Counted from the first letter of the stretch, positions 1,346 to 19,200 are shown. The stretch is DNA of 64,000 nucleotides from Planctomycetota bacterium (GCA_043736295.1 JAYTCW010000164.1:223-64222); one strand, 5' to 3'. The notes: generated by a model from the letters alone, not told the origin. Program-made: numbers and translations.

Positions 1346-3220
1346 GTGTCGTTACTGGTGTCGTTGGTGTCCGCTTCTTCTCCCGCTGTCTCTGTGCAGT
1401 CTGCTGCTCCATCAGGTGCCTCGCCGCCGTCGAACTGGGTGCTGCTGCGCCGGTTGATTGCGATTGGGTTCGAGTACCGGCGCGGGTGCTTCGAGATGAT
1501 CGCGATGCACCTGGGGCTGGTGACGCTGACCTTGAGCGGGCTGGGACTGACGGGGCTGGGGATTGATTACATTCGGTCGGTGATTGAGCCGGGGAGTGCG
1601 GCTCCGACATGGCCGCTGGGACTTCGGCCTCCCACAAGCTGGACTCCCATGCAGGTCGTCATCGCCATCGCAGCGGCGGTGATGGCCTCCGGGTTGTTGA
1701 CGGCACTACTGAGGTACTTCGCAGCTTTGGCAGCGGCACGGCTCACGCAGCGGATCTTGTTGCGGTTGCGGTCCGATGTGTATGCCAAGCTGCAGCGGCT
1801 CAACTTTCACTTCTACGATTCCGGCGAGAGCAGCTCGATCATCAACCGGGCGGCGGGAGACGTGAACTCAGTCCGCAGCTTCGTCGACGGGGTCATCATT
1901 AAGGTGCTGTCGGTGCTGCTGACCCTGGCGGTGTATCTGGCATACATGCTGCGCGTACACGTGCCGCTGACGGTGGTGTGCCTGTGTACGACTCCGCTGC
2001 TGTGGTTTGGGGCCAGCCGGTTCTCTCGCATTGTGCAGCCCGCGTATCGGCGGGCGAGCGAACTCGGCGATGCGATGGTACGGACGCTGGTCGAGAACTT
2101 GCAGGGCATCCACGTCGTCAAGGGTTTCGCCCGCGAGCCCGAGGAGATCGAACGCTTCCGCCAGGCCAACGACGCCATTCAACACGAGAAGGAGTCGATC
2201 TTCCGCCTACTCAGTACGTGGCAGCCGACCATCGGGTTCCTCACCCAGATCAACATGCTGATCTTGATCGGGTATGGCGGCTGGCTGGTGATCCAGGGGG
2301 AGATGGCACTCGGATCGGGTCTGTTCGTGTTCGCCAATCTGCTGCATGAGTTCGCCAATCAAGTCGGTCAAATCACAGCTGTGGCGAACACGATCCAGGC
2401 GAGTCTGGTGGGGGCGCAGCGGGTGTTCGAGGTACTCGATTCGCCGGTGCAGATCGTCAGCCCGCCGGACGCGGTGACCTTGCCACGGGCGAGGGGAGAG
2501 ATCGCCTTCGACCATGTCACGTTCGGGTACAAGCCCGAGAGTCCCGTACTACGCGATGTGACGTTCACGATCCAACCGGGGGAGTGCCTGGCCATTACGG
2601 GGGAAACCGGTTCGGGAAAAAGCACGCTGCTGAGCCTCATCATGCGGTTCTACGATGCAGATCAAGGAGCGGTTCGGGTCGATGGCCACGAAGTGCGGGC
2701 ACTGGAGATCGACTCGCTGCGGCGGAACATCGGGCTGGTGTTTCAGGAAGCGTTCCTGTTCAGTCACACGGTGGCGGCGAACATCGCCTTCGGTCGACCC
2801 GATGCCACGGATGAGGAGATCGCAAGAGCTGCGCGAATCGCGTGTGCGGATCGGTTCGTGGAAGAGATGCCGGAGCGGTACGACACCGTTGTGGGTGAAC
2901 ACGGAGCGAACCTCTCGGGCGGCCAGCGGCAACGCCTCTCGATCGCGCGAGCTCTACTCCTCGACCCGCCGATCTTGCTGTTCGATGACGCGACCGCCTC
3001 CGTCGACCCCGAGACCGAACACGAAATCCGCGAGGCCCTCGAATCCGCCATGCAGGGCCGGACCTCGATCGTCGTCTCGAATCGGCTGAGTACGCTCCGC
3101 CGCGCGGACCGAGTGTTGATCCTGGAGAACGGCCGCATCTCCGCTATCGGGACACACGTGGACCTGATGCAGACGAGTCCGTATTACCGCCGTTTGGCCG
3201 AACTGCAATTCGGGTTGTGA
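1346..3220 (+). CDS. ABC exporter, fused permease + ATPase (MsbA/ABCB-like half transporter), without a C39 peptidase domain
   Basis: Hydrophobic N-terminal half, then Walker A GETGSGKST, signature LSGGQRQRLSIARAL and Walker B ILLFDDATASVD. The ORF starts at GTG 1346; the exact start is uncertain. Confidence 0.9.
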   Translation: MSLLVSLVSASSPAVSVQSAAPSGASPPSNWVLLRRLIAIGFEYRRGCFEMIAMHLGLVTLTLSGLGLTGLGIDYIRSVIEPGSAAPTWPLGLRPPTSWTPMQVVIAIAAAVMASGLLTALLRYFAALAAARLTQRILLRLRSDVYAKLQRLNFHFYDSGESSSIINRAAGDVNSVRSFVDGVIIKVLSVLLTLAVYLAYMLRVHVPLTVVCLCTTPLLWFGASRFSRIVQPAYRRASELGDAMVRTLVENLQGIHVVKGFAREPEEIERFRQANDAIQHEKESIFRLLSTWQPTIGFLTQINMLILIGYGGWLVIQGEMALGSGLFVFANLLHEFANQVGQITAVANTIQASLVGAQRVFEVLDSPVQIVSPPDAVTLPRARGEIAFDHVTFGYKPESPVLRDVTFTIQPGECLAITGETGSGKSTLLSLIMRFYDADQGAVRVDGHEVRALEIDSLRRNIGLVFQEAFLFSHTVAANIAFGRPDATDEEIARAARIACADRFVEEMPERYDTVVGEHGANLSGGQRQRLSIARALLLDPPILLFDDATASVDPETEHEIREALESAMQGRTSIVVSNRLSTLRRADRVLILENGRISAIGTHVDLMQTSPYYRRLAELQFGL

Positions 3221-3324: not shown

Positions 3325-5457
3325 TCATTGCGGGTCGACCAGTGCGCGGGTCCAGTCTCGCACGGCACTGGTTAGTTGCTGGGCAATCGTGCGGCGTCCA
3401 CTGAGTGGGGCGGCGCTGGCTTGTTGACCGGCGAAGACGTTAGAAGAAGCGGCGGCATCGAGCTTCGCTCGTAGCAGGAATCGCGGTTCGCTGAGCTTCA
3501 CGCCCTCGTCATCAGCGTCCGCCGAACTGGCGACCACATCGACCTCGCCGCCATGCACTGCGGATAACGCCGGGTGAGGTAATCGCGTCGAAGCTCGTGG
3601 TTCGAGAGACAGACTCGCCGAAGCCGCTGGGCCGGTCCCTCGAATACGCAGGTCAGCTGAGTGGATGTCGGCGACCGAGAATGCTTCCAGGTCGCGCTGG
3701 TCGACACTGGCGAGCACCTCTTTACGAGCATCATCACCAATCACCAGCAATTCGGTTCCCTCCTTGAGATAGTTCCCGATCTGCTGGTCGAGTCGGCGGG
3801 CCAGCACGCGCCCCGCCACGGGGGCCTTGATCGACAGAGCGTCGGTCCGGAGGTACGCCTCGGCGAGCTGTTCCTTGAGGGCTTGCTGATTGCGAAGTTC
3901 GATCTGTGCCAGCGCCAGTTCCTTGCGGTTGACCTGGCCAATTCGCTTCGCTTCGGATTGCTGGATGGCCAGTTCAAGGTCCGTGACGCGGGCGTTGAGT
4001 TCCTGGTTGTGCAGGATGACCAGCTCGTCACCGGCCTCGACGGTCTGCCCGTTGGTCACGAGGATCTCTTGAACGAATCCCGCGGAGGAGACTCGGACGA
4101 CTTCGAGGTCCGCATAGTCGACGATCCCCGGTGCGTGTCGTTGAAACGGACTCGGCAAGTGAAACACCAATGCTCCCACACACACCGCTGTCAGCGATCC
4201 CAGCAGCACCGCGCGACTGGCACTCCACCGATCGCGACGCCAGCGCGTCACCAGCGAGACCAGCAAATCAATCACCGGCTTCACGTACCACAGCAGTATC
4301 GCCCCGATCGCAATCGCCAAACCCGCCCCGCGAAACATCACAGCGGCCCCGGCGAGCAGCGAGGCCGAGACGGTGACTCGCCACATGGAGGAGAGCAGGG
4401 CGTAGCTGCGAATGACAGCTCCCTGGAACCCCGAGGGGACGGGAACGGCGCGTAGCTCTCCGTAGAAGAACCGAGCATAGCGGGACTGGAGCCAGCGGCT
4501 GGCGGTCGTGCTCAGGTTCGAGATATCGAGCAGGTCTTCGAGAATGAAATAGCCGTCGAACCGCATCAGCGGATTGATGTTGAAGATCAATGTCGTCAGG
4601 CTCGCGCTGACGACGATGTTGTGCAGCAAATGCCGCGCAAAGGGGGTCGTCGCTTGCGTCCAGCAGAGCGCCGCGATGGCGGCAACCGTCAGCTCGACCA
4701 GGATTCCTCCAGCGGCCACGTGCATCCGCTGCCAGCGCGAGCGAAAGCCAAGCGATGAGGTCACATCGACATAGGCCATCGGGGCGAACAGGACGAAGAC
4801 GACCCCCATCTCGGTCACGCGGCCCCCGTGAGAGCGGCAGGCCAGCCCGTGTCCGATCTCGTGGACCACTTTGAGCGCGACCCAGACGATCGCCAGCAGC
4901 AGCCAGTTGTGAGAGGAGAAGACCTGCCGCGAGTCGGCCCAGAACGCTTCGGCATGTCCCGCCAGGACGACACCCGCCGCGATCCACAGAGCGGCCATTG
5001 CCATGATCGCCGGGCCGGTGAAGAGCCAGCGAGTCCACGGTAGTAACAGGTCTAGTAGTCGCTCGGGGCGGAGCAGCGGGAGCTTCATCCAGAACGGATT
5101 GAACAGCGAACTGAGCGAGGCGAGCTTCGTAGTCGTGGACTCGATCGAGCCCTCGGTCGGAGTCGCGAGTCGGGTCTCGACGAGCCACAGGCAGATACTC
5201 GTTGCTTCCGACTCCGAGAACGCTTCGTGGCCAAGTGTCCGCGATGCAATCGTCACGGCCTCCGCCAGCGAGGTCCGCCCATCGAGCAGCGAGATTAACA
5301 CATATTCGGCTCGCCCCACTCGGTAAAACCGGACAGCGACCGGGTCTTCGAGTTGATATGACACCCCATCGACGGTCGGCACCGGTCGGACGATCACATC
5401 GTCCCGGAGTTTGAGCCGGGTCCGGTCGAGTTCACGGGTGCTGAGGTTGAGTTGCAT
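3325..5457 (-). CDS. PqqD-like N-domain / M50 site-2-protease membrane domain / HlyD-type adaptor fusion protein
   Basis: N-terminus FYRVGRAEYVLISLLDGRTSLAEAV...ICLWLVETRLA resembles PqqD/RRE. HEIGH plus NINPLMRFDGY are the two S2P/M50 motifs, set within multiple TM segments. The C-terminal half has split lipoyl-like halves around a coiled coil (GFVQEILVTNGQTVEAGDELV ... IKAPVAGRVLARR), as in membrane-fusion proteins. Confidence 0.8.
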   Translation of the reverse strand: MQLNLSTRELDRTRLKLRDDVIVRPVPTVDGVSYQLEDPVAVRFYRVGRAEYVLISLLDGRTSLAEAVTIASRTLGHEAFSESEATSICLWLVETRLATPTEGSIESTTTKLASLSSLFNPFWMKLPLLRPERLLDLLLPWTRWLFTGPAIMAMAALWIAAGVVLAGHAEAFWADSRQVFSSHNWLLLAIVWVALKVVHEIGHGLACRSHGGRVTEMGVVFVLFAPMAYVDVTSSLGFRSRWQRMHVAAGGILVELTVAAIAALCWTQATTPFARHLLHNIVVSASLTTLIFNINPLMRFDGYFILEDLLDISNLSTTASRWLQSRYARFFYGELRAVPVPSGFQGAVIRSYALLSSMWRVTVSASLLAGAAVMFRGAGLAIAIGAILLWYVKPVIDLLVSLVTRWRRDRWSASRAVLLGSLTAVCVGALVFHLPSPFQRHAPGIVDYADLEVVRVSSAGFVQEILVTNGQTVEAGDELVILHNQELNARVTDLELAIQQSEAKRIGQVNRKELALAQIELRNQQALKEQLAEAYLRTDALSIKAPVAGRVLARRLDQQIGNYLKEGTELLVIGDDARKEVLASVDQRDLEAFSVADIHSADLRIRGTGPAASASLSLEPRASTRLPHPALSAVHGGEVDVVASSADADDEGVKLSEPRFLLRAKLDAAASSNVFAGQQASAAPLSGRRTIAQQLTSAVRDWTRALVDPQ

Positions 5458-5667: not shown

Positions 5668-7545
5668 TCACCAGCCAATCCAGAATCGCACTTGATCGAT
5701 GGCCTTGTGGAACAGGTTCCAGCCCAAGGGGTGTTTCGCGGTCTCGATTTTGGCCCGCCCCTTCATGCCAGGGCGGAGGAGGCTGAACTCGTTGGCGAAC
5801 TTCACTTCGGCGACGAAGACGTAGTCCTCGTCGACGAGTTCTGATCGCGGATGAATCCGCTCAATCGTCCCCATCCAAGTCCGGTCGGGCAGGGCGTTGA
5901 GGACCGCCTCGACCGACTGGCCCACCACGACATGCCCGATGTCCTCTTCGGGGATGCTGATCTCCAGCACCATCTCTTCCAACGGGGCGATCTCGAACAG
6001 CGTCTGTCCCGTGGTGAGTGGGGCTCCCTCGGCTTTGCGGAGGTCGCCGCTGATGATGACTCCAGCAACTGGGCTGCGGATTTCGAGTTGCTCGCTGCGC
6101 TGGCGGAGGACGGTCGCCTTGGCGGTCATGCGGGCCATTTCGAGTCGCGACACCTGGGCCGCGTTGATCTCTTTCTCCGCTAGGTGCCCGTCGCGCTCTT
6201 TCGCCGCCCGGTCGACCTCAGCTGTGGCTCCGGAGAGTTCCCAGCGGATCTCCTCGCCGTCGAGGCGGGCGAGGACTTGCCCAGCTGTGACCTCATCACC
6301 GGGCTCGACATCAGCGTGCAGCAGTCGGGCGTCGAAGGGGGCAGCGATGTACCGCAGCGACACCGGGTGGACCTCGCATCCGCCCCGGACCGAGTAGGGG
6401 AACGGGACGCACAGACCCGCCGCCAGCAAGAGGCATCCCAGCGCGATCAGTTGGCCCTTGCGTTGCCGCATTGATTGGGAGACATGGCTCCAGGTTCTGG
6501 CGATCCGCCCTTGCTCCCCACGCCGCAAAGTGCGAAGTGCTGCACCCATCAGCGGGGCCGCAGCCTGCATAAAGCCCGCCGTGGACGCAACTTGATCCGT
6601 GTTGCTGACGATGGCGATCCAGGCCCCGACGGTCTCTCCCTCATGAGTTCTCAGTGGCACCGAGACGACCGACTCGGCATTCCAGCGCAGGGCCAACTGC
6701 TTATGAGTCGCCAGCGAATGCCGTGTCGCTCCCGCAGGAGGAGGCCAGATTCCGATCTCGCCGCGTAACAGACACTCATCGAGAGTTGCTTCAAGAAACG
6801 AGTCACGCTTCTCGGGTGAGACGTTCCCTTCACTGCGACTGACGGCGGTGAGGCGACAGCCGGGCTGGCCGGGGCGAACCAGCGCCACGGCCATCTGTTG
6901 CACTCTCAGATGACGAGATGCCTCATCGCACAGCACCTGTCCAGCGGTCGTGACGTCCGTCGCAGATTGGACTCGCGCCGCGAGATCGACAATCGCGGCT
7001 GTGGCGGACACCTCGCGATCGAGAGTGATCGCCCCGGCTCGAAGATCGAACATCGCCACAGTCGACACCGCGAGTTCGACCACAGTGGTCAGCACATCGG
7101 GCGGAGCGGAGGGAGCCAAGAAGAGCGCGAGCAGCACCTCCGGCAGTGGGCCCGTGGTGATCGGCACACTCACCAGCAACTGAGTCGGAGGACGGCCAAT
7201 TCGACCGGCTCGTGTCTGGCGGTCCTGACAGGCCGCCATGGAAAACTCGCGAAAGCTTTTCGTCGTTAGCTCAGGTAATCCGGCAATCGGATGCAGGATT
7301 CCGTCGAGAGCCACTTGACCCTGCGCATCGGGGCGACCAATCACGAGAATGTCGGCCCGTACCGTGTCGGTCAGGACTCTCGCGATTCGTGCAATCAGGT
7401 CAGCACGACCCGTAGACTGGGATGCCGCCTCACTGAAGCGGGCTTGCAGTGTCCGCAGTCTCTCCGTGTCGGGGCGTCGCTGTACGGCTGCGGCCTCGGG
7501 TGGAGTGCTGGTAGGCACGGGAGTGACCGGCGACGAAGAACTCAT
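5668..7545 (-). CDS. GAF-domain-containing HlyD-family adaptor (cytoplasmic sensor region + TM + membrane-fusion-protein domain)
   Basis: About 360 N-terminal residues show two GAF-like modules, followed by the TM segment LIALGCLLLAAGLCVPFPY. The MFP part includes LLHADVEPGDEVTAGQVLARLDG ... IRSPVAGVIISGDL ... RPGMKGRAKI. The start ATG overlaps the upstream stop (ATGA at 7542-7545). Confidence 0.75.
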   Translation of the reverse strand: MSSSSPVTPVPTSTPPEAAAVQRRPDTERLRTLQARFSEAASQSTGRADLIARIARVLTDTVRADILVIGRPDAQGQVALDGILHPIAGLPELTTKSFREFSMAACQDRQTRAGRIGRPPTQLLVSVPITTGPLPEVLLALFLAPSAPPDVLTTVVELAVSTVAMFDLRAGAITLDREVSATAAIVDLAARVQSATDVTTAGQVLCDEASRHLRVQQMAVALVRPGQPGCRLTAVSRSEGNVSPEKRDSFLEATLDECLLRGEIGIWPPPAGATRHSLATHKQLALRWNAESVVSVPLRTHEGETVGAWIAIVSNTDQVASTAGFMQAAAPLMGAALRTLRRGEQGRIARTWSHVSQSMRQRKGQLIALGCLLLAAGLCVPFPYSVRGGCEVHPVSLRYIAAPFDARLLHADVEPGDEVTAGQVLARLDGEEIRWELSGATAEVDRAAKERDGHLAEKEINAAQVSRLEMARMTAKATVLRQRSEQLEIRSPVAGVIISGDLRKAEGAPLTTGQTLFEIAPLEEMVLEISIPEEDIGHVVVGQSVEAVLNALPDRTWMGTIERIHPRSELVDEDYVFVAEVKFANEFSLLRPGMKGRAKIETAKHPLGWNLFHKAIDQVRFWIGW

Positions 7546-8468
7546 CGAACCTTCCCGACTTCCAATCGGCTGGTCTTGATCGGTGGCTTAGCCGTAGGTG
7601 CGGGAGCGGTACCAGCCTTGGGCGGGCCAGCGGTCTCGGCCCTCGGCAGTTCACCATTCACCACCAGCAGGCACTTCTCGCCGCTGCGATAGATGTTCTT
7701 CGAGTTCGGAACTCGCACCTTGATGAGAATCGTTCCGCTCTGAGCATCGATGACGGGAGCGATGTAGTCGACGACTCCCTTGGCGGGGAGACGTGTCTCT
7801 CCGACGAGCATGCTGACCTCGACGTTGGCCTTGAGTTCGTGGCTCAACACGGAGGGCACCGAGTAGATCGCGATCAGCGGGTCGAGTTGAACGACGGTCG
7901 CGATCACCGGATCGTTCACCGAGACGAACTCACCCACATCCCGGTGGACCTTGACGACGACTCCATCAATCGGCGAACGCACATTGCGTTGTTCGAGCTG
8001 GACCTTGATTCGGTCGTACTCTAAGCCTCGAATGAGCAGCTCCTCCTGCACGGCCAACAACTGGGCTTCGGAGACTTCCTTCTCGACCAGACAGCGGTCG
8101 AACTCTTCCTGTGTGGCATGCTTGCGTTCGAGCAACATCTTGAGTTTCTCGCCGCGTTCGGTCCGCAGGCGAATGTCTGCCTGTGCAGAGTTCACTCGCC
8201 CCTTGGCGTTACGACTCCGATCGGCGATCTCGAGCGTCGCATTGAGCAGAGTCTGGTCGAGGGTGCCGAGAATCTGATCCTTTTGGACTCGATCCCCCTC
8301 CTTGACGTTGATCAGGGAGACGATCCCGATATCGGTCGAGGCAACATCAAGATCGCGAAACGGCTCCGTGAAGCCTTCGATCTCGGCTGCCGAGACTGAG
8401 CCCGCCAGCAGGCAAGCAGCGAGTGCCGCGCAGAAACTCATTCGATTCTTGGTCGGTGTCATGTTCAT
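7542..8468 (-). CDS. HlyD/membrane-fusion-protein family periplasmic adaptor with signal/anchor sequence
   Basis: I chose the start at MNMTPTKNRMSFCAALAACLLAGSVSA (ATG 8468-8466), which overlaps the SecA-like stop by ATGA. Lipoyl-like halves are VSLINVKEGDRVQKDQILGTLD and VRSPIDGVVVKVHRDVGEFV, around a coiled coil. Confidence 0.8.
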   Translation of the reverse strand: MNMTPTKNRMSFCAALAACLLAGSVSAAEIEGFTEPFRDLDVASTDIGIVSLINVKEGDRVQKDQILGTLDQTLLNATLEIADRSRNAKGRVNSAQADIRLRTERGEKLKMLLERKHATQEEFDRCLVEKEVSEAQLLAVQEELLIRGLEYDRIKVQLEQRNVRSPIDGVVVKVHRDVGEFVSVNDPVIATVVQLDPLIAIYSVPSVLSHELKANVEVSMLVGETRLPAKGVVDYIAPVIDAQSGTILIKVRVPNSKNIYRSGEKCLLVVNGELPRAETAGPPKAGTAPAPTAKPPIKTSRLEVGKVR

Positions 8469-10381
8469 TCTCCGAGGAATATGGCGAGGATGGTGTCTCG
8501 CTGCAGGTCTTGGTTCAACAGGCTGTTTCGTAGTTGCGAGGCTTGGCGTTCGGTTTCGGCCTGGAGTTGTCTCAGTGCCGATGTGAGGTCCGTTCGGCAC
8601 TCCTGATCGTGCCCTGCGAGCTTGATGATGCGTGCGGACAGAGTCGGTCCGTGTTCGATAAGGAGATCGTCCTCCGCGGAGACGAACATCTGGGCCGATC
8701 CCGGTTGACCTTGCCGGGCCCCGCGTCCGATCAGCTGTCGGTCGACTCGATGCGAGTCGTAGGGCTCAGAGCAGATGACATGCAGACCGCCCACCGCCAG
8801 AGTTGCGGGGGAGGGCTTGATGTCGGTCCCGCGTCCGGCCATGTGAGTGGCGATGGTGATGGCGCGGAGCTGGCCAGCGGCGGAGACGATTTCGGCTTCG
8901 TCTTTGTCTTGTCGCCCGTTGAGTAGTTCGAAGGGGAGCTTTCGCTCTCGCAGGAGTGCGGCCAATCTCTCGCTATTCGCGATGGAGCGCGTGCCCACCA
9001 GGATCGGCTGCCCGGTCAGGTGCCGAGAGGCGACCTCTTCGGCAATCGCATTCCATTTGGCCTGAGCCGTCGTGAAAAACCGCGTCGTCAAGATGTCTCG
9101 CTGAGTCGGAAGTCGCAGCGGGATTGGCTGGACATCGACTCGGTAGATCGACTGGAACTCACTCTCACCACCGGTCGCGGTTCCAGTCATCCCGCTGAGG
9201 GTGCGGTAGAGCCGCAGGAATCGCTGGCGAGTAATCCGAGCGAGCGAACTCGTGTCCGGTGTGATCCGCTGGCCCTCTTTAGCCAGGACGGCTTGGTGCA
9301 ATCCATCACTCCAGGTGCGGTCGGGCATGATGCGACCGGTGGAGCCGTCAACGATCTGCACCTCGTCGTCGTGGACGATGTACTCACGGTCACGCTGGAA
9401 GAGCAGGCGGGCCTTGAGCGCCGCTTCGACATACAGTGCCCAGGGACGGATGAGCACTTGAATGGGGATTTGATCGACCGCCGAGTGAGTCTTCTCGCGT
9501 CCTTGATGTGTCAGACGTACCAGCCCGCGTGACGGGTCGAACTCGTAGTCGAGCTGCGGTGCGAATTCATTCGCCAGTCGGAGGGCCACGCGATGTGCTT
9601 CCGCATCGGGAGCATCTCCCGGGGCCGCCTCGCTGATCAGCAACGGCGAGATGGCGTCGTCGAGCATGACGTGATCGGCTTCGTCGACTATTGCGAAGTG
9701 GAGTCCCCGCTGCATCGTGACACGCGGAGAGAGACCGCCCGTCAGTCGCTGCCGCACCAGTACTCCGAGAGCTGCGGCTTTCACTTGCCGCAGCGATATT
9801 TGGTCGCGGAGGTAGTCGAACCCAAACTCGAAGCCATTCCCGTAGACCACATCGCAATCGTACAGAGGCCGCTTGACCTCCGCCGGAGCTTGCTCAGGGA
9901 GGACTGCAACCGTGAGCCCCAGCATTTCAAAGACTGGACGCAGCTCTTCGCAGTCACGCTCGGCGAGGTAGCTGTTCGAGGTCATCACATGGACGCCGCG
10001 ACCGCTCAGGGCATGGACAAACGCGGGCGCCGCACCGGTCAGGGTCTTGCCTTCGCCGGTGGCCATTTCGGCAATGGCTCCTTGGGCCAAGACGAGTCCC
10101 CCCAGGAGTTGAGGATCGTGCAGCGTCTTCCCGGTGACACGGCGGATCGCTTCGAGTGTGAAGGCGAAACCCGATTCGAGAACCTCGGGAGACTGCATAT
10201 CTCCGCCGGACTCGACGTTCTCGCGGAGTTGGATGGCATAGCCTCGAAGTTGAGTATCACTCAATGAAGTGAGTCGCGAGGCAACTTCGCGGATGCGCGG
10301 AATCAGCGCAGCCAGATTCTCCGATCGCCCAGGGCGTCGTCTGACATGCGATCGGTCTGGGGTTTGTTGCTCCAGAACCAC
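8465..10381 (-). CDS. Truncated SecA-like ATPase (motor domains + preprotein-binding domain, no wing/two-helix-finger/C-terminal tail)
   Basis: Collinear with SecA: LGGLVLAQGAIAEMATGEGKTL (Walker A), VHVMTSNSYLAERD, LHFAIVDEADHVMLDDAISPLLIS, LSGMTGTA, GQPILVGTRSI, ITIATHMAGRGTDI and GGLHVICSEPYDSHRVDRQLIGRGARQGQPGS. The protein ends about 90 aa after the last motor motif, at 638 aa total. GTG start at 10381. Confidence 0.85.
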   Translation of the reverse strand: MVLEQQTPDRSHVRRRPGRSENLAALIPRIREVASRLTSLSDTQLRGYAIQLRENVESGGDMQSPEVLESGFAFTLEAIRRVTGKTLHDPQLLGGLVLAQGAIAEMATGEGKTLTGAAPAFVHALSGRGVHVMTSNSYLAERDCEELRPVFEMLGLTVAVLPEQAPAEVKRPLYDCDVVYGNGFEFGFDYLRDQISLRQVKAAALGVLVRQRLTGGLSPRVTMQRGLHFAIVDEADHVMLDDAISPLLISEAAPGDAPDAEAHRVALRLANEFAPQLDYEFDPSRGLVRLTHQGREKTHSAVDQIPIQVLIRPWALYVEAALKARLLFQRDREYIVHDDEVQIVDGSTGRIMPDRTWSDGLHQAVLAKEGQRITPDTSSLARITRQRFLRLYRTLSGMTGTATGGESEFQSIYRVDVQPIPLRLPTQRDILTTRFFTTAQAKWNAIAEEVASRHLTGQPILVGTRSIANSERLAALLRERKLPFELLNGRQDKDEAEIVSAAGQLRAITIATHMAGRGTDIKPSPATLAVGGLHVICSEPYDSHRVDRQLIGRGARQGQPGSAQMFVSAEDDLLIEHGPTLSARIIKLAGHDQECRTDLTSALRQLQAETERQASQLRNSLLNQDLQRDTILAIFLGE

Positions 10382-10592: not shown

Positions 10593-12944
10593 TTACCAAC
10601 GTAGCCAGGAGCGACTCTTTGTGGGAGTCTCGCTGGTGCGCTGATCCTTCTTCTCTGGGGCCTTGGCCTTGGTGATCCCGGTCGACCGCGCGGGAACTTT
10701 GGGCTTGGTCAGCCCGGCCTGGGGAGGAATCAGTGTCTCCGCAGGAACCAGTGTCGGTTCGGGGTCAGAGGGAACCTCGACTTCGTATTTCAGCGGGTTC
10801 TCGAAAATCAACAGCGTGCCCATCGATCGCCGAACCCGAATCAACGCGATCGAGTACGACACCTGCGACTGGACGAACTCGCCTTCGGCATCGGCCAGCC
10901 GCTGCTGGGCATCGAGCAGATCTTCCAGCAGCAGGGTCGTCCCTCGGTCTGCACCGGGGAGCACCTTCCAGCGATCTTCGAGGTAACTCGACTCCGTCTC
11001 GGCGGCGATCAGTGCTTGGAATTTGCCGAGCATCTCGCGGTAGGAGGTCTCCGCCTCGCGGACAGAGAGTTCGACATCGGTTAGCCCGGTCTCCACAACC
11101 GTGCGGAAGTCGTAGACCGCTTTCGTCAATTCCCACTGCCGACGATCCTGGCGAGCTTTGGCCGCCCGGTTTCCGAGCGGCATCTCGAACTGCGTTCCCA
11201 CGGTGTAGCCCGGGCGACCGTCGGTATACTGGCTGCCGAGCGACTTTAGGATGTCATGATCGCCTTCCAGTCCCGCGACATAGGTGTTTAGCACCAGGTC
11301 GAGCTTGGGCAGGAGTTCGTTTTGAGACACACCGAGTCTCACTCCGGCCGCACGCAAGTCATGAACCGATTGCGAGATATCTGGGCGATACTGCAACGCA
11401 TTTTGAAGTGACCCCGCTAGCGACAAGGGCAGATGGTCGGTCCGCGGTGATTCGATGGGGACGAGTTCTGTCACTGAAAGATCGAGGTACTGAGGGGAGT
11501 TCACCAGCAGCCGCAAACGGGACTCGGCATTGCGAATCGCTGCTTGCGCTCGCACGATCTCCGAGCGACGACTGGCCACGGCTGCCTTCGCCCGATTCAC
11601 CTGTCGTTGCAAGGCGTCGATCTCTTCGCGACCACCAAGTGTTTCCAGGATGTACTGCGCACTGTCATAGACCTTGCGCCGCTGGAGATAGATTGCTCGC
11701 GAGCGGTAGAGGTCCCAGTACGTCTCGGTGACCTTCACTAAGTGATCTTGTAGCTCTTCCTGAACCACGTCAAACGACCTGTTGAGTTCGACTTGTGCCA
11801 GCACGATCCGTGCCTGGTTGTAGGCGACTCCTGATCCGTTCAGCAGTGGTTGGGTGTAGTTCAATTGGAGCCGACTGGTCCCTTGCGGGGCGGGAACGAA
11901 GAACTTGGAGTTGTTGTCCTGCCAACCCACCTTCTGCGAGATATCGAACTCGCCACCGTATTGATTCTTCCTACGGAGACCCGCTTGGACGGTGGCAATC
12001 TGTTCGACAAAACGGTTGGAATTATTCCCGGTCGTCAGCGTGTTCCCGACGGGGTCATTGAGATCACTCCATTTCGAATCGACAAACGTGGTCCAGTCGA
12101 AGGCAGCATTCTCCGCACTGAGAATGCTGTTGTTAATGTCGGGCTGGGTGCGGATTCCTAGAATCTGGGGAGAGTACTGCAGTGCCCCCGTCACGAGGGT
12201 GTCCACATCCACCGGGACTGTGGACTCGCTACGCCGGATCGGATTCGGCAATTCGTTGATCCACCACGGAACGTATCCGACCGGCAGCTGTGTCAGGTCA
12301 CCCGCTCGAACGTCCATGTCTTCTTCGACGGGAGACCGAGCCGCCCGGTCCTCGAACTCTGCTGTCCAGGGCAGTGCATCGGGATCTTGATTAGAGGGCA
12401 AGTACGGAGGGGCCAGTCCGGCAGCCTCCGACATCTCACTCGGCAGGTCACGGATCATGACCGGGACCACGCGAGCGTCAATCACTTCCCGAGGTGGCAA
12501 GGCCATCCGTTCCGGTTCTTGGTGACGGTCCCTCTTCTCAGTGGGGGGCAAACTCCGCTCGACTTTTTCGCTGGGCGGCGGCGGATCGTCCTCGTCGAGG
12601 CGTTCCACAACCGGCAGTTCCACTCGCTGGTCGTCCGAATCACTCGCCTGGGCGGGAAGTATTTCCGAGGTCTGCCTCGGGCGAACCGGAGGTCGCTTGG
12701 GAGCTGCACCGGTCCCCGGATACCCCAATCCGAGGGGGCGATTGGACGTGGCAGTCTTCCGACTGTGAGGTGTCGGAGCAGGAGCAGGTGCGTCGACCTC
12801 ATCCAAATCATCAAATACAGGTGCAAGTAACTGAATCACCGGCAGTTCTGGTGCCTGCGCTGGCTCACCCATCACGTGGGCTGCCATCCAGGCAGACGAC
12901 GTGATCGCGGCAGCAGTTGCAATCCATGCGTGGTGGCGTTCCAT
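10593..12944 (-). CDS. TolC-family outer-membrane efflux protein with a long Pro-rich N-terminal extension and a basic C-terminal tail
   Basis: Signal-like N-terminus MERHHAWIATAAAITSSAWMAAHVMG. About 200 aa are P/E/D-rich, followed by two OEP-type repeats (LQYSPQILGIRTQPD..., LQNALQYRPDISQSVHDLRAAGVRLGVSQNELLPKLDL...). Confidence 0.8.
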   Translation of the reverse strand: MERHHAWIATAAAITSSAWMAAHVMGEPAQAPELPVIQLLAPVFDDLDEVDAPAPAPTPHSRKTATSNRPLGLGYPGTGAAPKRPPVRPRQTSEILPAQASDSDDQRVELPVVERLDEDDPPPPSEKVERSLPPTEKRDRHQEPERMALPPREVIDARVVPVMIRDLPSEMSEAAGLAPPYLPSNQDPDALPWTAEFEDRAARSPVEEDMDVRAGDLTQLPVGYVPWWINELPNPIRRSESTVPVDVDTLVTGALQYSPQILGIRTQPDINNSILSAENAAFDWTTFVDSKWSDLNDPVGNTLTTGNNSNRFVEQIATVQAGLRRKNQYGGEFDISQKVGWQDNNSKFFVPAPQGTSRLQLNYTQPLLNGSGVAYNQARIVLAQVELNRSFDVVQEELQDHLVKVTETYWDLYRSRAIYLQRRKVYDSAQYILETLGGREEIDALQRQVNRAKAAVASRRSEIVRAQAAIRNAESRLRLLVNSPQYLDLSVTELVPIESPRTDHLPLSLAGSLQNALQYRPDISQSVHDLRAAGVRLGVSQNELLPKLDLVLNTYVAGLEGDHDILKSLGSQYTDGRPGYTVGTQFEMPLGNRAAKARQDRRQWELTKAVYDFRTVVETGLTDVELSVREAETSYREMLGKFQALIAAETESSYLEDRWKVLPGADRGTTLLLEDLLDAQQRLADAEGEFVQSQVSYSIALIRVRRSMGTLLIFENPLKYEVEVPSDPEPTLVPAETLIPPQAGLTKPKVPARSTGITKAKAPEKKDQRTSETPTKSRSWLRW

Positions 12945-16200: not shown

Positions 16201-19200
16201 GAGACCTTCGGAAGCCTCTCGGTGCAGACGGATGATGTCGTCGTCTTCCGTCCGGATGTCGTGGGGAGTTTCACCAGTGGGTCATTCTTCATCCTATTGG
16301 ACGGCCTCGAATCGATCGCGGGTGGGGCGATTGATTACCTGGCCGATGTCGACCTGATCGAGCAGACCACGCTCATCGGCGATGTCTTGTTACAGCCCGG
16401 CGACCTGGTGATCGCGGACATCGGCAATCTCGCCAGCTCGGTCGTCGTATTTCGCCCCACCAGCGTCGGGGCGGGAACGACCAGCGGGACCGTGACGACG
16501 TTGCTGAATGAGACCGAAATCCACCTCGATAAAGAAATCGTCGGAATTCAGGTGATCGAACGCGATACCGTGCTCGGGGGAGTCCAGCTGCGGCAGGGAA
16601 ACCTGATCGTGGCGGTCAACCTCAACAGCACTTTGGGAAGCAATGATCTCGCGGTCACGCTGCATGACGTGGCCCTGCTCGATGTGACCAAGACGAGCGT
16701 CAATGGTCCCGCGAACGTGACCGCCAGCATGCTGATCACCGGCTCTGATGTCTACCTCGATTCCGGCTCGGAAGCCGTTCGAAACCTGGCGCTGCTCTCC
16801 GTGCCGGGAGTCCCCCCGACCGTTCGCGATGAGACCTACACGCTGACCGAAGACGAGGTGTTCCACTCCGCGAATCAGTGGTACGACGCCAATTGGTCGT
16901 CGCGATTGCAACTGACGTTCGACAACTCGGCACGGGCGGAGAACCTGACCGACTTCCCGGTACTGGTGACCTTGGACTCGAATCGATTCGACTATGCCCT
17001 GGCTCAAAGCAATGGACAGGATCTGCGGTTCGTCGATGCCAATGGCCAGGTGCTTGCCTATGAGATTGAGACCTGGAACCCAGCCGGGCGCTCGGCGATC
17101 TGGGTCAAGGTGCCGCAGATTGATGCCAGCTCGAGTACCGATTCGATCTGGTTGTACTATGGCAATAGCTCCGCTCTGGCGGGCCAGAACCCGACCGCTG
17201 TCTGGTCGAATGGGTACGTGGGAGTCTGGCACCTGAATGGCGATCCATCGGGGACGCAGACGATCGCTGACTCGTCCTCCAGCAATGTCGATGGGACATC
17301 GATCGGAATGGATGCCACGAACCAGGTCAGCGGCCCCATCGGAGGGGCCTTGAAGTTCAACGGGGTGAACGAAGCGATTCGCGTGGCGACCACGTCGACC
17401 GATCCGACAGCTGTCGATCAGTCAGCACTGACGATCGAAGCCTGGGCGAACTCAACGGGCGACTCTGTGACAGCAGAGCGAATCATCAATCGTCGAAATA
17501 TAGTTTTCATCACGCCTTATGAATCGTATGGCTTGGCGACATCGTTCAGCGACCATACGCAAGTCGTCAACAGCACCGGGACACCAGATCTGACGGGTAC
17601 AACCGGTTCGCTCCCCGAAGACCGTTGGCGATACCTGACCGGTGTGCTTTCAGGTTCAACGTCCAGCCTCTACGTCGATGGGACGCTGAATGCGACCCAG
17701 ACAGGCGTGACCTCACTCGGGAGTAGTGACGACGATATCACCATTGGTGCCGGTGAGATGGGGTTCACGTCCACGCTCTCTCAATACTGGACCGGCGGCA
17801 TCGACGAGGTCCGACTCTCCAACGTCGCCCGCTCGGCGGCATGGACCGCCGCTCAATATGCGTCGATGACCGATACGCTGATTACCTATGGAGAGCGACA
17901 GACGGTCGCTGGGCTGCTGGACAATGATCAATCGGCGACCACGGGCGGCCTCGTTGTCACTAGCGTTGATCTCTCCGAGCTGACGGGAGTGGCCACAGCA
18001 CTGGTCCTCGACGATGGGCAGGTCTCATTCGTGCCTGGCGCGAGCTACCAGTCTCTCGCCGCAGGGCAGACTGTGTCGAAGGAGATCACCTATACCGCCA
18101 TCGACCAAAACGGAAACACGGACACCGCAACGGCCACGTTCGTGACTCACGGAGTCAATGATGCTCCAGTCATCAATACCGCAATCGGACCGCTGTCACT
18201 GTCCAGTGTGCTGGAGAACTCGACGAACCCACTCGGAAACACAGTCACGTCGATTCTGGCATCGGCAGGTGGCACGCTGATCACCGATGTCGACTCTGGA
18301 GCAGTGCGGGGGATTGCAATCACAGCTGTCGATACAGCAAACGGAACCTGGCAATACTCGCTCGATGGCACGACTTGGTCGAGCCTCACGGGAGTCAGCG
18401 ACACCAACGCGACTCTGCTCGACACCGCGTCTCGGCTGCGATTTGTCCCGACTGCTGGCTTCAGCGGAGCAGCGGGAGCAATCACGTTCCGAGCCTGGGA
18501 CCAGACCACTGGGACGAGCGCGCAGACCGGTGTCAATGTCTTAACAAATGGAGGCTCAACCGCCTTTAGCTCGCAAACCAGCACTGCGTCCATAACAGTC
18601 ACACCACTCAACACCCCTCCCGTAATCGTGACCAACTTCGGAATGACCGCTTTCGAAGGCAGTACAGCACTGTTAGGCAACACGCGACTGTCGGCGAGCG
18701 ATGTGGAGAACACCCCCACCCAACTGACCTATACGCTGACTGCATCGCCCACGAATGGCCGCATCGAACGAGTGGCAGCACCCGGCGTGGCGATCACGAC
18801 GTTCACACAGGCCGACTTGAACAGCAATGCGATCCGGTACATCCACGATGGCGGTGAAACCACCTCGGATGGTTTCAGCTTCTCGTTGAGCGATGGACTC
18901 GCTTCGGTCACCGGATCGTTCGCCATCACAGTCACTCCCGGAAACGACGCTCCGGTGGTTGCCGTGAATTCGAGCCTGACCGTCGTCGAAGGCGGGAACG
19001 GACTGCTGACGAATAGCAAGCTTTCGGCGAGCGATCCGGACAATACCGCTGCCCAACTCACGTACACGGTCAGCACGATCCCCGTGAATGGTCGCGTCGA
19101 GCGTGTCGCCGCACCGGGAATCACCATCACGTCATTCACGCAGGCCGAGATCAACAGCAATGCCATTCGCTACGTCCACAACGGTGGCGAGACCACTTCG

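What the first reader, a model, noticed from the sequence alone, without database searches (positions are those of the whole stretch)
3325..5457. Triple fusion: PqqD/RRE-like domain + intact M50 site-2 protease + HlyD adaptor in one polypeptide
Seen: residues ~20-95 (LKLRDDVIVRPVP..VSYQLEDPVAVRFYRVGRAEYVLISLLDGRTSLAEAV...ICLWLVETRLA) follow the PqqD-type winged-helix pattern. A polytopic region follows with both S2P catalytic motifs intact (HEIGH, NINPLMRFDGY). The C-terminal ~270 aa form a lipoyl/coiled-coil/lipoyl membrane-fusion module. Established: PqqD-like RREs bind leader peptides in RiPP pathways. M50 proteases cleave within or near membranes. T1SS-type peptide exporters usually remove leaders with a C39 domain on the ABC protein, and that domain is absent from the ABC gene at 1346-3220. 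Inference: this protein could recognise and clip an N-terminal leader while handing the substrate to the channel. The leader could belong to a small peptide, or be the ~90-aa N-terminal region of the giant adhesin ending in LESFEDRVLFSAAP.
Basis: partly seen in the sequence, partly recalled or inferred. Interest (0 to 1): 0.65.

Follow-up and report, generated by a model that had tools for sequence, protein, structure and literature searches.

The report
Leader-reading protease fused to secretion adaptor
One membrane protein combines a leader-peptide-binding domain, an intact membrane-embedded protease and a periplasmic secretion adaptor, and it probably recognises and trims the N-terminal "LEPR-XLL" leader of the neighbouring giant adhesin as a SecA-like/TolC-type machine exports it.

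Summary
The ORF at 3325-5457 lies on the minus strand and encodes 710 aa.

- **Residues 13-100:** these fold as a RiPP-recognition-element (RRE) winged helix. Foldseek's best hits are lasso-peptide B1 proteins bound to their leaders.
- **Residues 132-434:** a 7-TM M50/S2P core. HEIGH and NINPLMRFDG are invariant in 42 homologues.
- **Residues 435-710:** a MexA/MacA-type membrane-fusion module.

Pfam PqqD and other sequence-profile searches do not detect the RRE. The best family hit is the daptide "RRE-dependent intramembrane peptidase" MpaP. It scores 154 bits against a cutoff of 300, so this protein is a relative, not a member.

The fusion is not new. It is the Peptidase_M50/HlyD component of the SecA_DEAD + HlyD + GAF-HlyD + OEP module described by Kamneva et al. 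in 2015. All of those genes lie upstream here.

What I found new concerns the substrate:

- In 38 of 84 sequences searched, exactly one ORF carries R-x-L-x-L-x-x-L-E-[DE]-R-[VI]-L-[FMY]-[SD]-A-x-P.
- The motif always sits 14-99 aa from the start of a long ORF, nearly always right beside the module, usually a DUF4347 giant.
- The motif matches NCBIfam's LEPR-XLL domain.
- Its variable positions covary preferentially with RRE columns.

The likely function is leader recognition and cleavage of the giant adhesin, coupled to export. This is inferred and not demonstrated.

The parts
3325..5457 (-). RRE-M50-HlyD fusion gene (710 aa)
   Evidence: ORF list. Pfam and NCBIfam hits. At least 480 full-length homologues and at least 589 genome hits, mostly Planctomycetota.
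5158..5421 (-). N-terminal RRE-like winged-helix domain (residues 13-100), predicted cytoplasmic
   Evidence: AlphaFold2 pLDDT around 90 or above. Foldseek top hits are RREs bound to leader peptides. The domain adds 8-20 bits to the NF041824 score. Invariant residues are P25, G48, Y52, S56, D59, G60, A67 and W91. Sequence translated.
4156..5064 (-). Seven-TM M50/site-2-protease core (residues 132-434) with a membrane-reentrant beta-hairpin at residues 217-230
   Evidence: Pfam PF02163. NF041824 at E 7e-45 and NF058609. Helices from the AlphaFold2 model. K+R count is 14 in the inside loops and 3 in the outside loops.
4849..4863 (-). HEIGH zinc-binding and catalytic motif (residues 199-203), at the cytoplasmic end of TM2
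   Evidence: Translation. Invariant in 42 of 42 homologues.
4552..4581 (-). NINPLMRFDG motif (residues 293-302), carrying the third zinc ligand D301
   Evidence: Translation. N293, N295, P296, D301 and G302 are invariant.
3325..4155 (-). Periplasmic membrane-fusion (HlyD/MFP) module, residues 435-710: barrel-sandwich, alpha-hairpin (485-510 and 514-539) and beta-barrel
   Evidence: Pfam HlyD_D23 and HlyD_3. Foldseek hits to MexA, AcrA and MacA. PDB profile hits to MacA, MexJ and LipC.
5668..7545 (-). GAF-TM-HlyD protein (625 aa), a second adaptor with a cytoplasmic sensor domain
   Evidence: HlyD domains. GAF_2 at E 2e-4 over residues 195-337. TM segment at 366-384. Present in 57 of 60 related loci. 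ATGA overlap with the upstream gene.
7542..8468 (-). HlyD/RND_mfp-type adaptor. The likely start is the ATG at 8468 (308 aa, N-terminal signal-anchor); the mechanical ORF runs to 8600.
   Evidence: TIGR01730 at 116.8 bits, above its cutoff. ATGA overlap with the SecA-like stop codon. Present in 56 of 60 loci.
8465..10381 (-). Truncated SecA-like ATPase (638 aa): DEAD motor, preprotein cross-linking domain and NBD2, without the C-terminal scaffold and wing part
   Evidence: Pfam SecA_DEAD, SecA_PP_bind and P-loop_SecA. It matches profile positions 17-601 of 789 in PRK09200. Present in 33 of 60 loci. Described by Kamneva 2015.
10593..12944 (-). TolC-like outer-membrane factor (783 aa)
   Evidence: Pfam OEP with two stretches. 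TIGR01844 and TIGR01845. Present in 40 of 60 loci.
13225..24291 (+). Giant cadherin-repeat adhesin (3688 aa) with DUF4347, the candidate substrate; transcribed divergently from the module
   Evidence: Pfam DUF4347 at residues 155-322, Cadherin_3 x14, Cadherin_4 x12, Laminin_G_3 and DUF2341. A DUF4347 ORF lies beside the module in 31 of 60 loci.
13225..13539 (+). About 95-105 aa N-terminal leader of the giant protein: a basic region, the LEPR-XLL motif, then a short hydrophobic stretch
   Evidence: Translation. No Sec-type hydrophobic region lies before the motif. Leaders in 38 loci have the same layout.
13456..13521 (+). LEPR-XLL motif LLLESFEDRVLFSAAPALAPAP (residues 78-99), the proposed RRE recognition and M50 processing site
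   Evidence: NF012209 scores 18.3 bits against a cutoff of 17. Translation. In the motif logo P(+9) is kept in 36 of 38 although it was not in the search pattern. Covariation with RRE columns.

Best explanation
The 710-aa protein is the substrate-recognition and processing subunit, and also one of three periplasmic adaptors, of a tripartite envelope-spanning secretion module. The module comprises a TolC-like channel, a truncated SecA-like ATPase, an HlyD adaptor, a GAF-HlyD adaptor and this RRE-M50-HlyD protein. It appears dedicated to the adjacent giant DUF4347/cadherin adhesin.

Proposed mechanism:
1. The cytoplasmic RRE winged helix binds the LEPR-XLL leader motif (R-x-L-x-L-x-x-L-E-[DE]-R-[VI]-L-[FMY]-[SD]-A-x-P) near the N-terminus of the giant protein. 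By analogy with other RREs, the leader would bind as an added beta-strand.
2. This places the following A-x-P/hydrophobic stretch at the M50 active site. That site opens to the cytoplasmic leaflet (HEIGH at the inner end of TM2, D301 after TM4, next to a reentrant beta-hairpin). The leader is cut off there.
3. The SecA-like motor, which has a DEAD core and a preprotein clamp but no scaffold/wing region, drives the unfolded polypeptide outward.
4. The three HlyD-family proteins bridge to the TolC-like channel.

In function this parallels the C39 peptidase domain of bacteriocin ABC exporters and the RRE-dependent intramembrane peptidase MpaP of daptide pathways. Here the function is fused to the adaptor instead, and applied to a 3,688-aa protein.

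Shown: the domain anatomy, the intact catalytic motifs, the N-in/C-out topology prediction, the conserved gene neighbourhood, the conserved leader motif restricted to one ORF per locus, and the RRE-leader covariation.

Inferred: binding, cleavage and its position, the direction of transport, and what forms the inner-membrane pore.
For: Anatomy:
- Pfam and NCBIfam assign M50 and HlyD.
- The catalytic residues are invariant.
- The N-domain has an RRE fold.
- It extends the alignment colinearly into the N-terminal part of the daptide protease model, adding 8-20 bits in 4 of 4 proteins.

Topology:
- The AlphaFold2 model shows 7 TM helices.
- K+R is 14 in the inside loops and 3 in the outside loops.
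- This puts the RRE and the active site on the cytoplasmic side and the HlyD module in the periplasm.

Context:
- Of 60 related loci with at least 7 kb upstream, GAF-HlyD is present in 57, HlyD in 56, TolC in 40, SecA-like in 33, DUF4347 in 31 and ABC in 3.
- In Stieleria varia the order is SecA_DEAD, HlyD, HlyD, M50-HlyD, then a 6975-aa DUF4347 protein.

Leader:
- The motif regex gives 38 hits in 1.48 Mb of six-frame translation, one per locus.
- Every hit lies 14-99 aa after the first Met of a long ORF. The motif starts within about 2.3 kb of the module's edge in 35 of the 37 related loci (7.6 kb in L017, 3.8 kb in L043).
- The reversed-sequence control gives 0 hits.
- Positions outside the regex are also conserved: P+9 in 36 of 38, L-4, L-6 and R-8.
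- The motif hits NF012209 LEPR-XLL in the window and in 8 of 10 other leaders, 5 of those above the model's cutoff.

Covariation:
- Leader positions covary more with RRE columns than with HlyD columns at p<0.001 in 5 of 17 leader columns.
- The same holds for only 6 of 141 DUF4347 control columns (Fisher p = 0.0025).

Other:
- The giant protein has no ordinary N-terminal Sec signal peptide.
Against: - No experiment bears on binding or cleavage.
- Sequence-profile tests for PqqD/RRE are not significant. The best Foldseek E-value is only 1.6e-3.
- The NF041824 score of 154 bits is far below its 300-bit cutoff.
- 13 of 38 loci with at least 9 kb on both sides show no motif-bearing ORF, and 11 of those 38 lack both SecA-like and the motif. 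In at least one of these (L025) the giant gene is present but its N-terminus lies outside the fetched stretch.
- In Thiotrichales the fusion gene occurs without the rest of the module, so the protein may have other clients.
- The covariation test uses 33 related pairs and is only partly controlled for phylogeny.
- No inner-membrane translocation pore is identified.
- The M50 domain showed no significant covariation with the leader.
Confidence: 0.55

Rival explanations
1. The substrate is a small ribosomal peptide (a RiPP or bacteriocin), as in daptide or epipeptide pathways. On this reading the RRE-M50 part removes the peptide's leader and the HlyD part hands it to an exporter, and the giant adhesin is merely a neighbour.
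For: The closest characterised relatives, daptide MpaP (NF041824) and YydH/LiaK (NF058609), act on short precursors (PMC10028931). All structurally characterised RREs among the Foldseek hits bind short precursor peptides.
Against: - The motif search over 1.48 Mb hit only long ORFs, never a short one.
- The intergenic regions around the module hold only mechanical small ORFs without the motif.
- None of the module genes or genes next to them that I scanned (1346-28314) has a modifying-enzyme domain.
- The conserved partners are secretion components and a DUF4347 giant.
Confidence: 0.07
2. The RRE-M50 part is a regulatory or release device, not an obligatory maturation step. One version: the N-terminal leader tethers the adhesin to the machine, in the manner of the LapA retention module, and regulated intramembrane cleavage releases it or clears a jammed channel. 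Control could come from the GAF domain and from the neighbouring histidine kinase and response-regulator-HD proteins.
For: - A GAF sensor is fused to the second adaptor.
- A hybrid histidine kinase and a Response_reg-HD_5 protein lie directly downstream of the giant gene.
- A Response_reg-HD_5 gene also sits next to the Stieleria module.
- Classical S2P proteases act in regulated proteolysis (established knowledge).
- The giant protein has a conserved C-terminal hydrophobic motif that could be the true anchor or signal.
Against: - The predicted topology puts the RRE and the active site on the cytoplasmic side. That suits pre-export or co-export processing better than release of a surface-exposed protein.
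- No anti-sigma or sigma pair lies nearby.
- The regulator genes were not surveyed systematically across loci.
Confidence: 0.2
3. The M50 domain serves mainly as the inner-membrane scaffold or pore of the machine, as Kamneva et al. proposed. On this reading the RRE is only a docking receptor, and the substrate is not cleaved by this protein.
For: No ABC, RND or MFS transporter is conserved in the module, so some component must span the inner membrane. Kamneva et al. 2015 proposed the M50 protein as the pore candidate. The leader showed no significant covariation with M50 columns.
Against: All zinc-binding and catalytic residues are invariant across 42 homologues down to 37% identity. That is not expected for a purely structural role. 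The invariant Pro at +9 and the small residues before it fit the helix-breaking requirement of S2P substrates (established knowledge).
Confidence: 0.15

Closest known systems
Daptide leader peptidase MpaP (NCBIfam NF041824, 'daptide biosynthesis intramembrane metalloprotease'; Ren et al. 2023, PMC10028931)
   Same: An N-terminal RRE is fused to an intramembrane site-2-type HExxH protease. It is the best family hit (E 7e-45), and the alignment is colinear from the RRE through the protease core. In both systems a leader motif contains LE and ends in A-(x)-P: ELExMEAP in daptides, LE[DE]R[VI]L[FM][SD]AxP here.
   Different: The score of 154 bits is well below the 300-bit cutoff. This protein has three extra TM helices and a 270-aa periplasmic HlyD module. 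I found no daptide biosynthetic genes and no short Thr-terminated precursors. The candidate substrate is a protein of 3,688 aa or more. The organism is a planctomycete, not Actinomycetota or Bacillota.
SecA_DEAD / Peptidase_M50-HlyD / HlyD / GAF-HlyD / OEP module of Kamneva, Poudel & Ward 2015 (PMC4452313)
   Same: The gene set and domain compositions are identical, and the phyla match. This window holds a member of that module.
   Different: In the passages I searched, that paper does not describe an RRE, a substrate, or the LEPR-XLL/DUF4347 link. It suggests the M50 protein might act as the pore.
Peptidase-containing ABC transporters (PCATs, C39-ABC bacteriocin exporters) and classical type I secretion
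   Same: Both use a tripartite architecture of HlyD-family adaptor and TolC-family channel. In both, an N-terminal leader would be removed by a protease that is physically part of the export machine (established knowledge).
   Different: No ABC transporter is conserved with the module. The ATPase is SecA-like. The protease is a zinc intramembrane enzyme fused to the adaptor, not a cytosolic cysteine protease fused to the transporter. The leader is LEPR-XLL, not double-glycine. The substrate has no RTX or C-terminal T1SS signal domains.
PqqD / lasso-peptide B1 RiPP recognition elements (PF05402; PDB 6jx3, 5v1v)
   Same: The three-strand plus three-helix winged-helix fold is shared (target TM 0.68-0.70). 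hhalign aligns the a1-turn-a2 motif xxLLDGxxSxxE in register with PqqD.
   Different: There is no significant Pfam or profile hit. The model shows two extra short strands, at 59-63 and 98-102. The domain is fused to a membrane protein and is apparently used for a giant secreted protein.
SecA-like DEAD + preprotein-binding domains lacking scaffold/wing in Omnitrophota giant proteins (West-Roberts et al. 2023, bioRxiv 10.1101/2023.11.21.568195)
   Same: A truncated SecA motor without the scaffold/wing region is associated with export of giant surface proteins.
   Different: In Omnitrophota the SecA-like domain is embedded in the giant protein itself. Here it is a separate 638-aa protein in an operon with the adaptors.

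Membership tests
RiPP recognition element (PqqD-like RRE) | Winged helix-turn-helix fold with a three-stranded sheet followed by three helices | tested here: met
   The AlphaFold2 model has strands at 22-28, 31-38 and 43-47 and helices at 49-56, 64-78 and 82-94, with pLDDT around 90 or above. Foldseek's best hits are RREs: TfuB1, TbiB1, TigE, CteB, SuiB and MadB.
RiPP recognition element (PqqD-like RRE) | Significant match to a PqqD/RRE sequence profile (PF05402 or equivalent) | tested here: not met
   No Pfam hit for the query at E<=10. Only 1 of 37 homologues hits, at E 0.074. hhalign against a real PqqD alignment gives probability 3.6% and P 0.012. The RRE-Finder custom models were not available.
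RiPP recognition element (PqqD-like RRE) | Binds a conserved recognition sequence in the N-terminal leader of a co-encoded substrate | tested here: inconclusive
   A conserved leader motif exists on the neighbouring ORF and covaries preferentially with RRE columns (Fisher p 0.0025). Physical binding could not be tested.
Peptidase M50 / site-2 protease | HExxH in a transmembrane helix plus a downstream NxxPxxxxDG (LDG-type) motif supplying the third zinc ligand | tested here: met
   HEIGH at 199-203 and NINPLMRFDG at 293-302, invariant in 42 of 42 homologues.
Peptidase M50 / site-2 protease | Pfam PF02163 at or above its gathering score, and a polytopic membrane core | tested here: met
   31.4 bits against 27.2, as a partial match to profile positions 3-100. 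The AlphaFold2 model shows 7 TM helices and a reentrant hairpin.
Peptidase M50 / site-2 protease | Zinc-dependent intramembrane proteolysis of a substrate | not testable with these tools
   This needs a biochemical assay.
Daptide MpaP equivalog (NF041824) | Score at or above the curated cutoff of 300 bits | tested here: not met
   153.7-155.1 bits. Homologues score 160-179 bits.
Daptide MpaP equivalog (NF041824) | Daptide gene-cluster context: short Thr-terminated precursors, an oxidoreductase, an aminotransferase and a methyltransferase | tested here: not met
   The neighbours are a SecA-like ATPase, HlyD proteins, a TolC-like protein, an ABC gene, the giant adhesin, a histidine kinase and a response-regulator-HD protein. 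No short motif-bearing ORFs were found.
Membrane fusion protein (HlyD/MFP family) | Barrel-sandwich (lipoyl), alpha-helical hairpin and beta-barrel domains following a membrane anchor | tested here: met
   Pfam HlyD_D23 and HlyD_3. The alpha-hairpin lies at 485-510 and 514-539. Foldseek matches MexA, AcrA and MacA at E 1e-11. The profile matches MacA, MexJ and LipC.
Membrane fusion protein (HlyD/MFP family) | Works with a co-encoded ABC, RND or MFS inner-membrane transporter and a TolC-family channel | tested here: inconclusive
   A TolC-like gene is present here and in 40 of 60 loci. No conserved transporter was found: ABC appears in 3 of 60 loci, and the one here is convergent. A SecA-like ATPase is present in 33 of 60 loci.
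Kamneva 2015 SecA_DEAD-associated T1SS-like module | Co-located genes for a secondary SecA_DEAD protein, a Peptidase_M50/HlyD protein, an HlyD protein and a GAF/HlyD protein (with or without OEP) | tested here: met
   All five genes lie on the minus strand at 3325-12944.
LEPR-XLL domain proteins (NCBIfam NF012209), for the candidate substrate | Short N-terminal LEPR-XLL motif scoring at or above 17 bits | tested here: met
   18.3 bits at giant-protein residues 78-99. 8 of 10 leaders from other loci hit the model, 5 of them above the cutoff.
Classical type I secretion system | ABC transporter energiser and a C-terminal, uncleaved secretion signal (often with RTX repeats) on the substrate | tested here: not met
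   No conserved ABC gene. The giant protein has no RTX/HemolysinCabind domains and carries an N-terminal conserved leader instead.

The most novel reading that the evidence does not exclude
This module is a distinct protein-secretion pathway. An RRE, a domain so far known only from small-peptide natural-product biosynthesis, serves as the signal receptor for an N-terminal LEPR-XLL leader on giant adhesins of thousands of residues. An adaptor-fused site-2 protease acts as the dedicated leader peptidase. A scaffold-less SecA paralogue replaces the ABC transporter as the motor of a TolC-type tripartite conduit. LEPR-XLL would then be a new class of cleavable secretion signal.
Probability: 0.4. 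Interest if true: 0.85.

Novelty: new variant of a known kind. Interest (0 to 1): 0.68.

Why it matters
- **A testable secretion route for giant adhesins.** How Planctomycetes and related bacteria export surface proteins of 3,000-7,000 aa or more that lack ordinary signal peptides is unknown. The SecA_DEAD/HlyD/M50 module has had no proposed substrate or recognition mechanism since 2015. Linking its M50-HlyD subunit to an RRE, and to the LEPR-XLL leader of the adjacent DUF4347 giants, yields a concrete hypothesis: signal, receptor, peptidase, motor and conduit.
- **A wider role for RREs.** It would move RRE domains beyond RiPP chemistry into protein secretion.
- **A function for an orphan motif.** The LEPR-XLL motif would gain a function, which would allow substrates of this pathway to be predicted from genomes.
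- **If cleavage does not occur.** The locus would still be a well-defined example of a published but uncharacterised module.

Tried and rejected
1. Pfam and NCBIfam scans of the N-domain alone, for the query, two homologues and all 37 alignment members, gave no significant PqqD/RRE hit.
2. The N-domain profile against PDB sequences gave only a chance capsid hit at E 0.64.
3. hhalign of the N-domain alignment against a genuine PqqD alignment gave probability 3.6%. The PqqD set was retrieved with a recalled Klebsiella PqqD sequence as bait, and all hits carry PF05402. The set is narrow (at least 73% identity), so this is a weak test.
4. phmmer of the whole protein against PDB found nothing. The full-length profile against PDB found only MFPs and no S2P structure.
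5. Foldseek with the full-length model was dominated by MFP hits, so it gave no structural comparison for the M50 core.
6. The ABC gene as partner was rejected on orientation and lack of conservation.
7. A small-peptide precursor was rejected.
8. Rfam found no families in 1-30000. Promoter and terminator scans were at shuffle level.
9. The N-domain profile search of 1.84 billion representatives gave the family size (984 hits at E<=1e-3). The top 150 hits were all the same architecture or fragments of it, so it did not bridge to other RRE families.
10. Covariation of leader positions with M50 columns was not significant. My first covariation run had an off-by-one index error in the leader positions; it was redone.
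11. Literature searches for LEPR-XLL, for DUF4347 with secretion, for RRE-Finder with M50, and for follow-ups to Kamneva 2015 found no functional study.


Full report
**1. What is at the coordinates**

The ORF at 3325..5457 is real, starts with ATG and encodes 710 aa. It lies on the minus strand. It is therefore convergent with the ABC gene at 1346..3220 (+). It is the last gene of a minus-strand array:
- TolC-like, 10593..12944.
- SecA-like, 8465..10381.
- HlyD, about 7542..8468.
- GAF-HlyD, 5668..7545.
- The fusion gene, 3325..5457.

The SecA-like/HlyD and HlyD/GAF-HlyD junctions are ATGA stop/start overlaps. The array is transcribed divergently from a 3,688-aa ORF at 13225..24291.

**2. The two uncontroversial domains**

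*M50 protease.* Pfam Peptidase_M50 scores 31.4 bits against a gathering score of 27.2. The match is partial, covering residues 189-266. HEIGH (nt 4849-4863) and NINPLMRFDG (nt 4552-4581) are present. In an alignment of 42 full-length homologues that share 37-80% identity with the query, H199, E200, H203, N293, N295, P296, D301 and G302 are invariant. The protease is therefore almost certainly active.

*HlyD adaptor.* HlyD_D23 and HlyD_3 cover residues 443-597. The full-length AlphaFold2 model has mean pLDDT 82.8. It shows a barrel-sandwich, a two-helix hairpin (485-510 and 514-539) and a beta-barrel. Foldseek matches it to MexA, AcrA, MacA and EmrA at E about 1e-11. A profile of the family matches MacA, MexJ and the T1SS adaptor LipC in PDB.

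**3. The N-terminal domain**

This was the uncertain part of the finding. Ordinary sequence-profile tests fail:
- No Pfam hit for residues 1-138 at E<=10.
- Only 1 of 37 homologous N-domains touches PF05402, at E 0.074.
- Nothing in NCBIfam for the N-domain alone.
- No RRE among PDB sequences with the N-domain profile.
- hhalign against an alignment of genuine PqqD proteins gives probability 3.6% and P 0.012. The 25 aligned columns do pair AEYVLISLLDGRTSLAEAV with the PqqD a1-turn-a2 motif ETAAAILELVDGRRDVAAII.

Structure and family-level evidence are positive:
- AlphaFold2 on a 37-sequence alignment gives a confident domain, with pLDDT around 90 or above over residues 11-100. Its order is strand-strand-strand-helix-helix-helix.
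- Its best PDB neighbours are RiPP recognition elements. These are TfuB1 bound to its leader (6jx3_B, E 1.6e-3, target TM 0.68), TbiB1 bound to leaders (5v1v and 5v1u, TM 0.70), and the RRE-containing TigE, CteB, SuiB and MadB.
- The best family match of the whole protein is NCBIfam NF041824, the daptide intramembrane metalloprotease (E 7e-45). That alignment starts at residue 42 of the query, inside the N-domain.
- Removing the N-domain lowers the NF041824 score by 13.0, 8.1, 11.6 and 20.4 bits in four family members. It also truncates the alignment from profile positions 13-26 to positions 84-94.

I conclude that the domain is an RRE-type winged helix, homologous to the one in MpaP-type peptidases. 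It is too divergent for PF05402.

**4. Topology**

The model has seven TM helices: 148-167, 182-209, 247-267, 277-295, 346-368, 377-400 and 416-434. A reentrant beta-hairpin lies at 217-230. Loops assigned to the inside hold 14 Lys+Arg, and outside loops hold 3. This places the RRE in the cytoplasm. HEIGH and D301 sit at the cytoplasmic ends of TM2 and TM4, and the HlyD module is in the periplasm. That arrangement is what a device needs if it reads a leader in the cytoplasm and bridges to an outer-membrane channel.

**5. The fusion is widespread and already published as a gene family**

- At least 480 full-length homologues of about 710-750 aa were found.
- At least 589 hits were found in species-representative genomes.
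- The N-domain profile found 984 representative clusters at E<=1e-3.
- Most are Planctomycetota. Some are Verrucomicrobiota, Brocadiia and Thiotrichales.
- Sources name them "putative peptide zinc metalloprotease protein" or "efflux RND transporter periplasmic adaptor subunit".

Kamneva, Poudel & Ward (2015, PMC4452313) described exactly this neighbourhood. It comprises a secondary SecA_DEAD protein plus three HlyD-domain proteins, one with weak Peptidase_M50 similarity and one with GAF, and sometimes an OEP protein. They noted the absence of an ABC transporter. In the passages I retrieved they name no RRE and no substrate.

**6. Context statistics**

Among 60 related loci with at least 7 kb upstream of the fusion gene:

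| Neighbour | Loci with it (of 60) |
|---|---|
| GAF-HlyD | 57 |
| HlyD | 56 |
| TolC-like | 40 |
| SecA-like | 33 |
| DUF4347 | 31 |
| ABC | 3 |

The ABC gene of this window is conserved only in an 88%-identical relative, L006. It is therefore not part of the system.

The SecA-like protein has the DEAD motor, the preprotein cross-linking domain and NBD2. It stops at about profile position 601 of 789, so it lacks the C-terminal part of SecA where the scaffold and wing domains lie. The same kind of truncation is reported for SecA-like domains embedded in Omnitrophota giant proteins (bioRxiv 10.1101/2023.11.21.568195).

**7. The candidate substrate**

The divergent 3,688-aa ORF has DUF4347 (residues 155-322), DUF2341, Laminin_G_3 and 26 cadherin-like repeats. 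I found no Sec-type hydrophobic region before residue 87. Its residues 78-99, LLLESFEDRVLFSAAPALAPAP, match NCBIfam NF012209, the "LEPR-XLL domain", at 18.3 bits against a cutoff of 17.

In Stieleria varia a 6,975-aa DUF4347 protein directly follows the fusion gene. It carries LQLESRVLMSASP about 40 aa from its start.

A pattern built from such leaders was searched in six frames over 1.48 Mb, comprising 83 related loci plus the window:
- It hit 38 times, once per locus.
- Every hit lies 14-99 aa after the first Met of a long ORF. The motif starts within about 2.3 kb of the module's edge in 35 of the 37 related loci.
- Reversed sequences gave no hits.
- Positions not in the pattern are also conserved: P at +9 in 36 of 38, L at -1 in 33, L at -4 and at -6 in 22 each, and R at -8 in 18.
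- 8 of 10 leaders from other loci hit NF012209.

After the motif come about 6-10 small or hydrophobic residues, then an acidic linker, then DUF4347. The daptide leader motif ELExMEAP also contains LE and ends in A-P. I treat that only as a suggestive resemblance.

**8. Covariation**

For 33 locus pairs, I computed mutual-information z-scores between each variable leader position and every column of the fusion protein. I then compared RRE and M50 columns with HlyD columns, using the periplasmic HlyD module as an internal control.
- RRE columns exceed HlyD columns at p<0.001 for 5 of 17 leader columns.
- The same holds for only 6 of 141 columns in the DUF4347 domain of the same proteins (Fisher p = 0.0025).
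- M50 columns show no significant excess.

With 33 related pairs this is suggestive, not proof. It is the pattern expected if the RRE reads the leader.

**9. Mechanism**

Best-supported reading (confidence about 0.55): the RRE docks the LEPR-XLL leader in the cytoplasm. The adjacent M50 site removes it. The SecA-like ATPase drives the unfolded giant protein. Three HlyD-family proteins connect to the TolC-like channel. One of these carries a cytoplasmic GAF sensor, and one is this protein.

This parallels C39-ABC bacteriocin exporters and MpaP. The differences are that the peptidase is fused to the adaptor, the motor is SecA-like, and the client is thousands of residues long.

Not shown: binding, cleavage and its site, the direction of threading, and the identity of the inner-membrane pore.

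Rivals:
- A regulatory or release role, about 0.2. The GAF domain, the adjacent hybrid kinase and the response-regulator-HD protein favour it.
- A scaffold or pore role without cleavage, about 0.15. Invariant catalytic residues argue against it.
- A small-peptide substrate, about 0.07. No precursor ORFs or tailoring enzymes were found.

**10. Exceptions and caveats**

- 13 of 38 loci with long flanks on both sides lack a detectable motif ORF. In at least one (L025) the giant gene is present but its N-terminus lies beyond the fetched DNA.
- Some genomes carry two modules.
- In Thiotrichales the fusion gene stands without the other module genes.
- The Foldseek E-values for the RRE are modest.

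**11. Novelty**

Three elements are already known:
- The gene family and its module (2015).
- RRE-S2P fusions (2023).
- An NCBIfam model for the LEPR-XLL motif.

I could not find the following combination in the searchable literature:
- An RRE in the M50-HlyD subunit of the SecA-like module.
- The LEPR-XLL leader of DUF4347 giants as its cognate signal.

I class it as a new variant of a known kind. It would be of fairly high interest to secretion and RiPP specialists if confirmed.

Noticed in passing
window 24060-24230 (+), C-terminus of the giant ORF; also L010 12671-12781, L025 4491-4709, L028 3998-4171, L070 19902-20042: The giant protein ends in a conserved hydrophobic motif, SL(S/T)VGYV(I/V)WxLRGGxLLxSxxSxxPxWxSxDPLP(I/V)L, followed by an acidic tail. 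The motif looks like two TM segments. It has no Pfam or NCBIfam match and could be a C-terminal anchor or a second sorting signal.
   Followed up: partly
window 24288-26936 (+) and 27079-28314 (+); L001 3491-4942: The giant gene's stop codon overlaps the start of a hybrid histidine kinase (PAS-HisKA-HATPase-REC-Hpt). A Response_reg-HD/HD_5 protein follows it. A Response_reg-HD_5 gene also flanks the Stieleria module, which hints at a conserved signalling input, possibly cyclic-nucleotide based. I did not survey this across loci.
   Followed up: partly
window 8465-8468 and 7542-7545 (-): ATGA stop/start overlaps couple SecA-like to HlyD and HlyD to GAF-HlyD. The mechanical GTG start at 8600 for the HlyD ORF is probably wrong. 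The ATG at 8468 gives a 308-aa protein with an N-terminal signal-anchor (MSFCAALAACLLAGSVSAA).
   Followed up: yes
window 8465-10381 (-): The SecA paralogue aligns to only about the first 600 of 789 positions of full-length SecA models, so it lacks the C-terminal part where the scaffold and wing domains lie. The same kind of truncation is reported for SecA-like domains inside Omnitrophota giant proteins.
   Followed up: partly
window 1346-3220 (+): This MsbA/HepA-like ABC exporter has no C39 domain. It is convergent with the fusion gene across a 104-nt gap. It is conserved in that position only in the 88%-identical relative L006. Its role is unknown.
   Followed up: partly
L077 9965-12121 and L083 9932-12130 (Thiotrichales): The RRE-M50-HlyD gene occurs without SecA-like, the other HlyD genes or a motif-bearing ORF. 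Its neighbours there are a glycosyltransferase-like ORF or a 1552-aa membrane protein. The family may therefore serve other clients outside Planctomycetota.
   Followed up: no
loci pairs L058/L063, L033/L040, L021/L027, L032/L066, L006/L079: Two paralogous modules occur in the same genome assembly. In the Mariniblastus case they lie on the same contig, which suggests one module per giant substrate.
   Followed up: no
window 28375-32031 (-), 36249-38660 (-), 58155-62846 (+): Other large ORFs in the window (1218, 803 and 1563 aa) were not examined. None carries the LEPR-XLL-type motif near its N-terminus.
   Followed up: no
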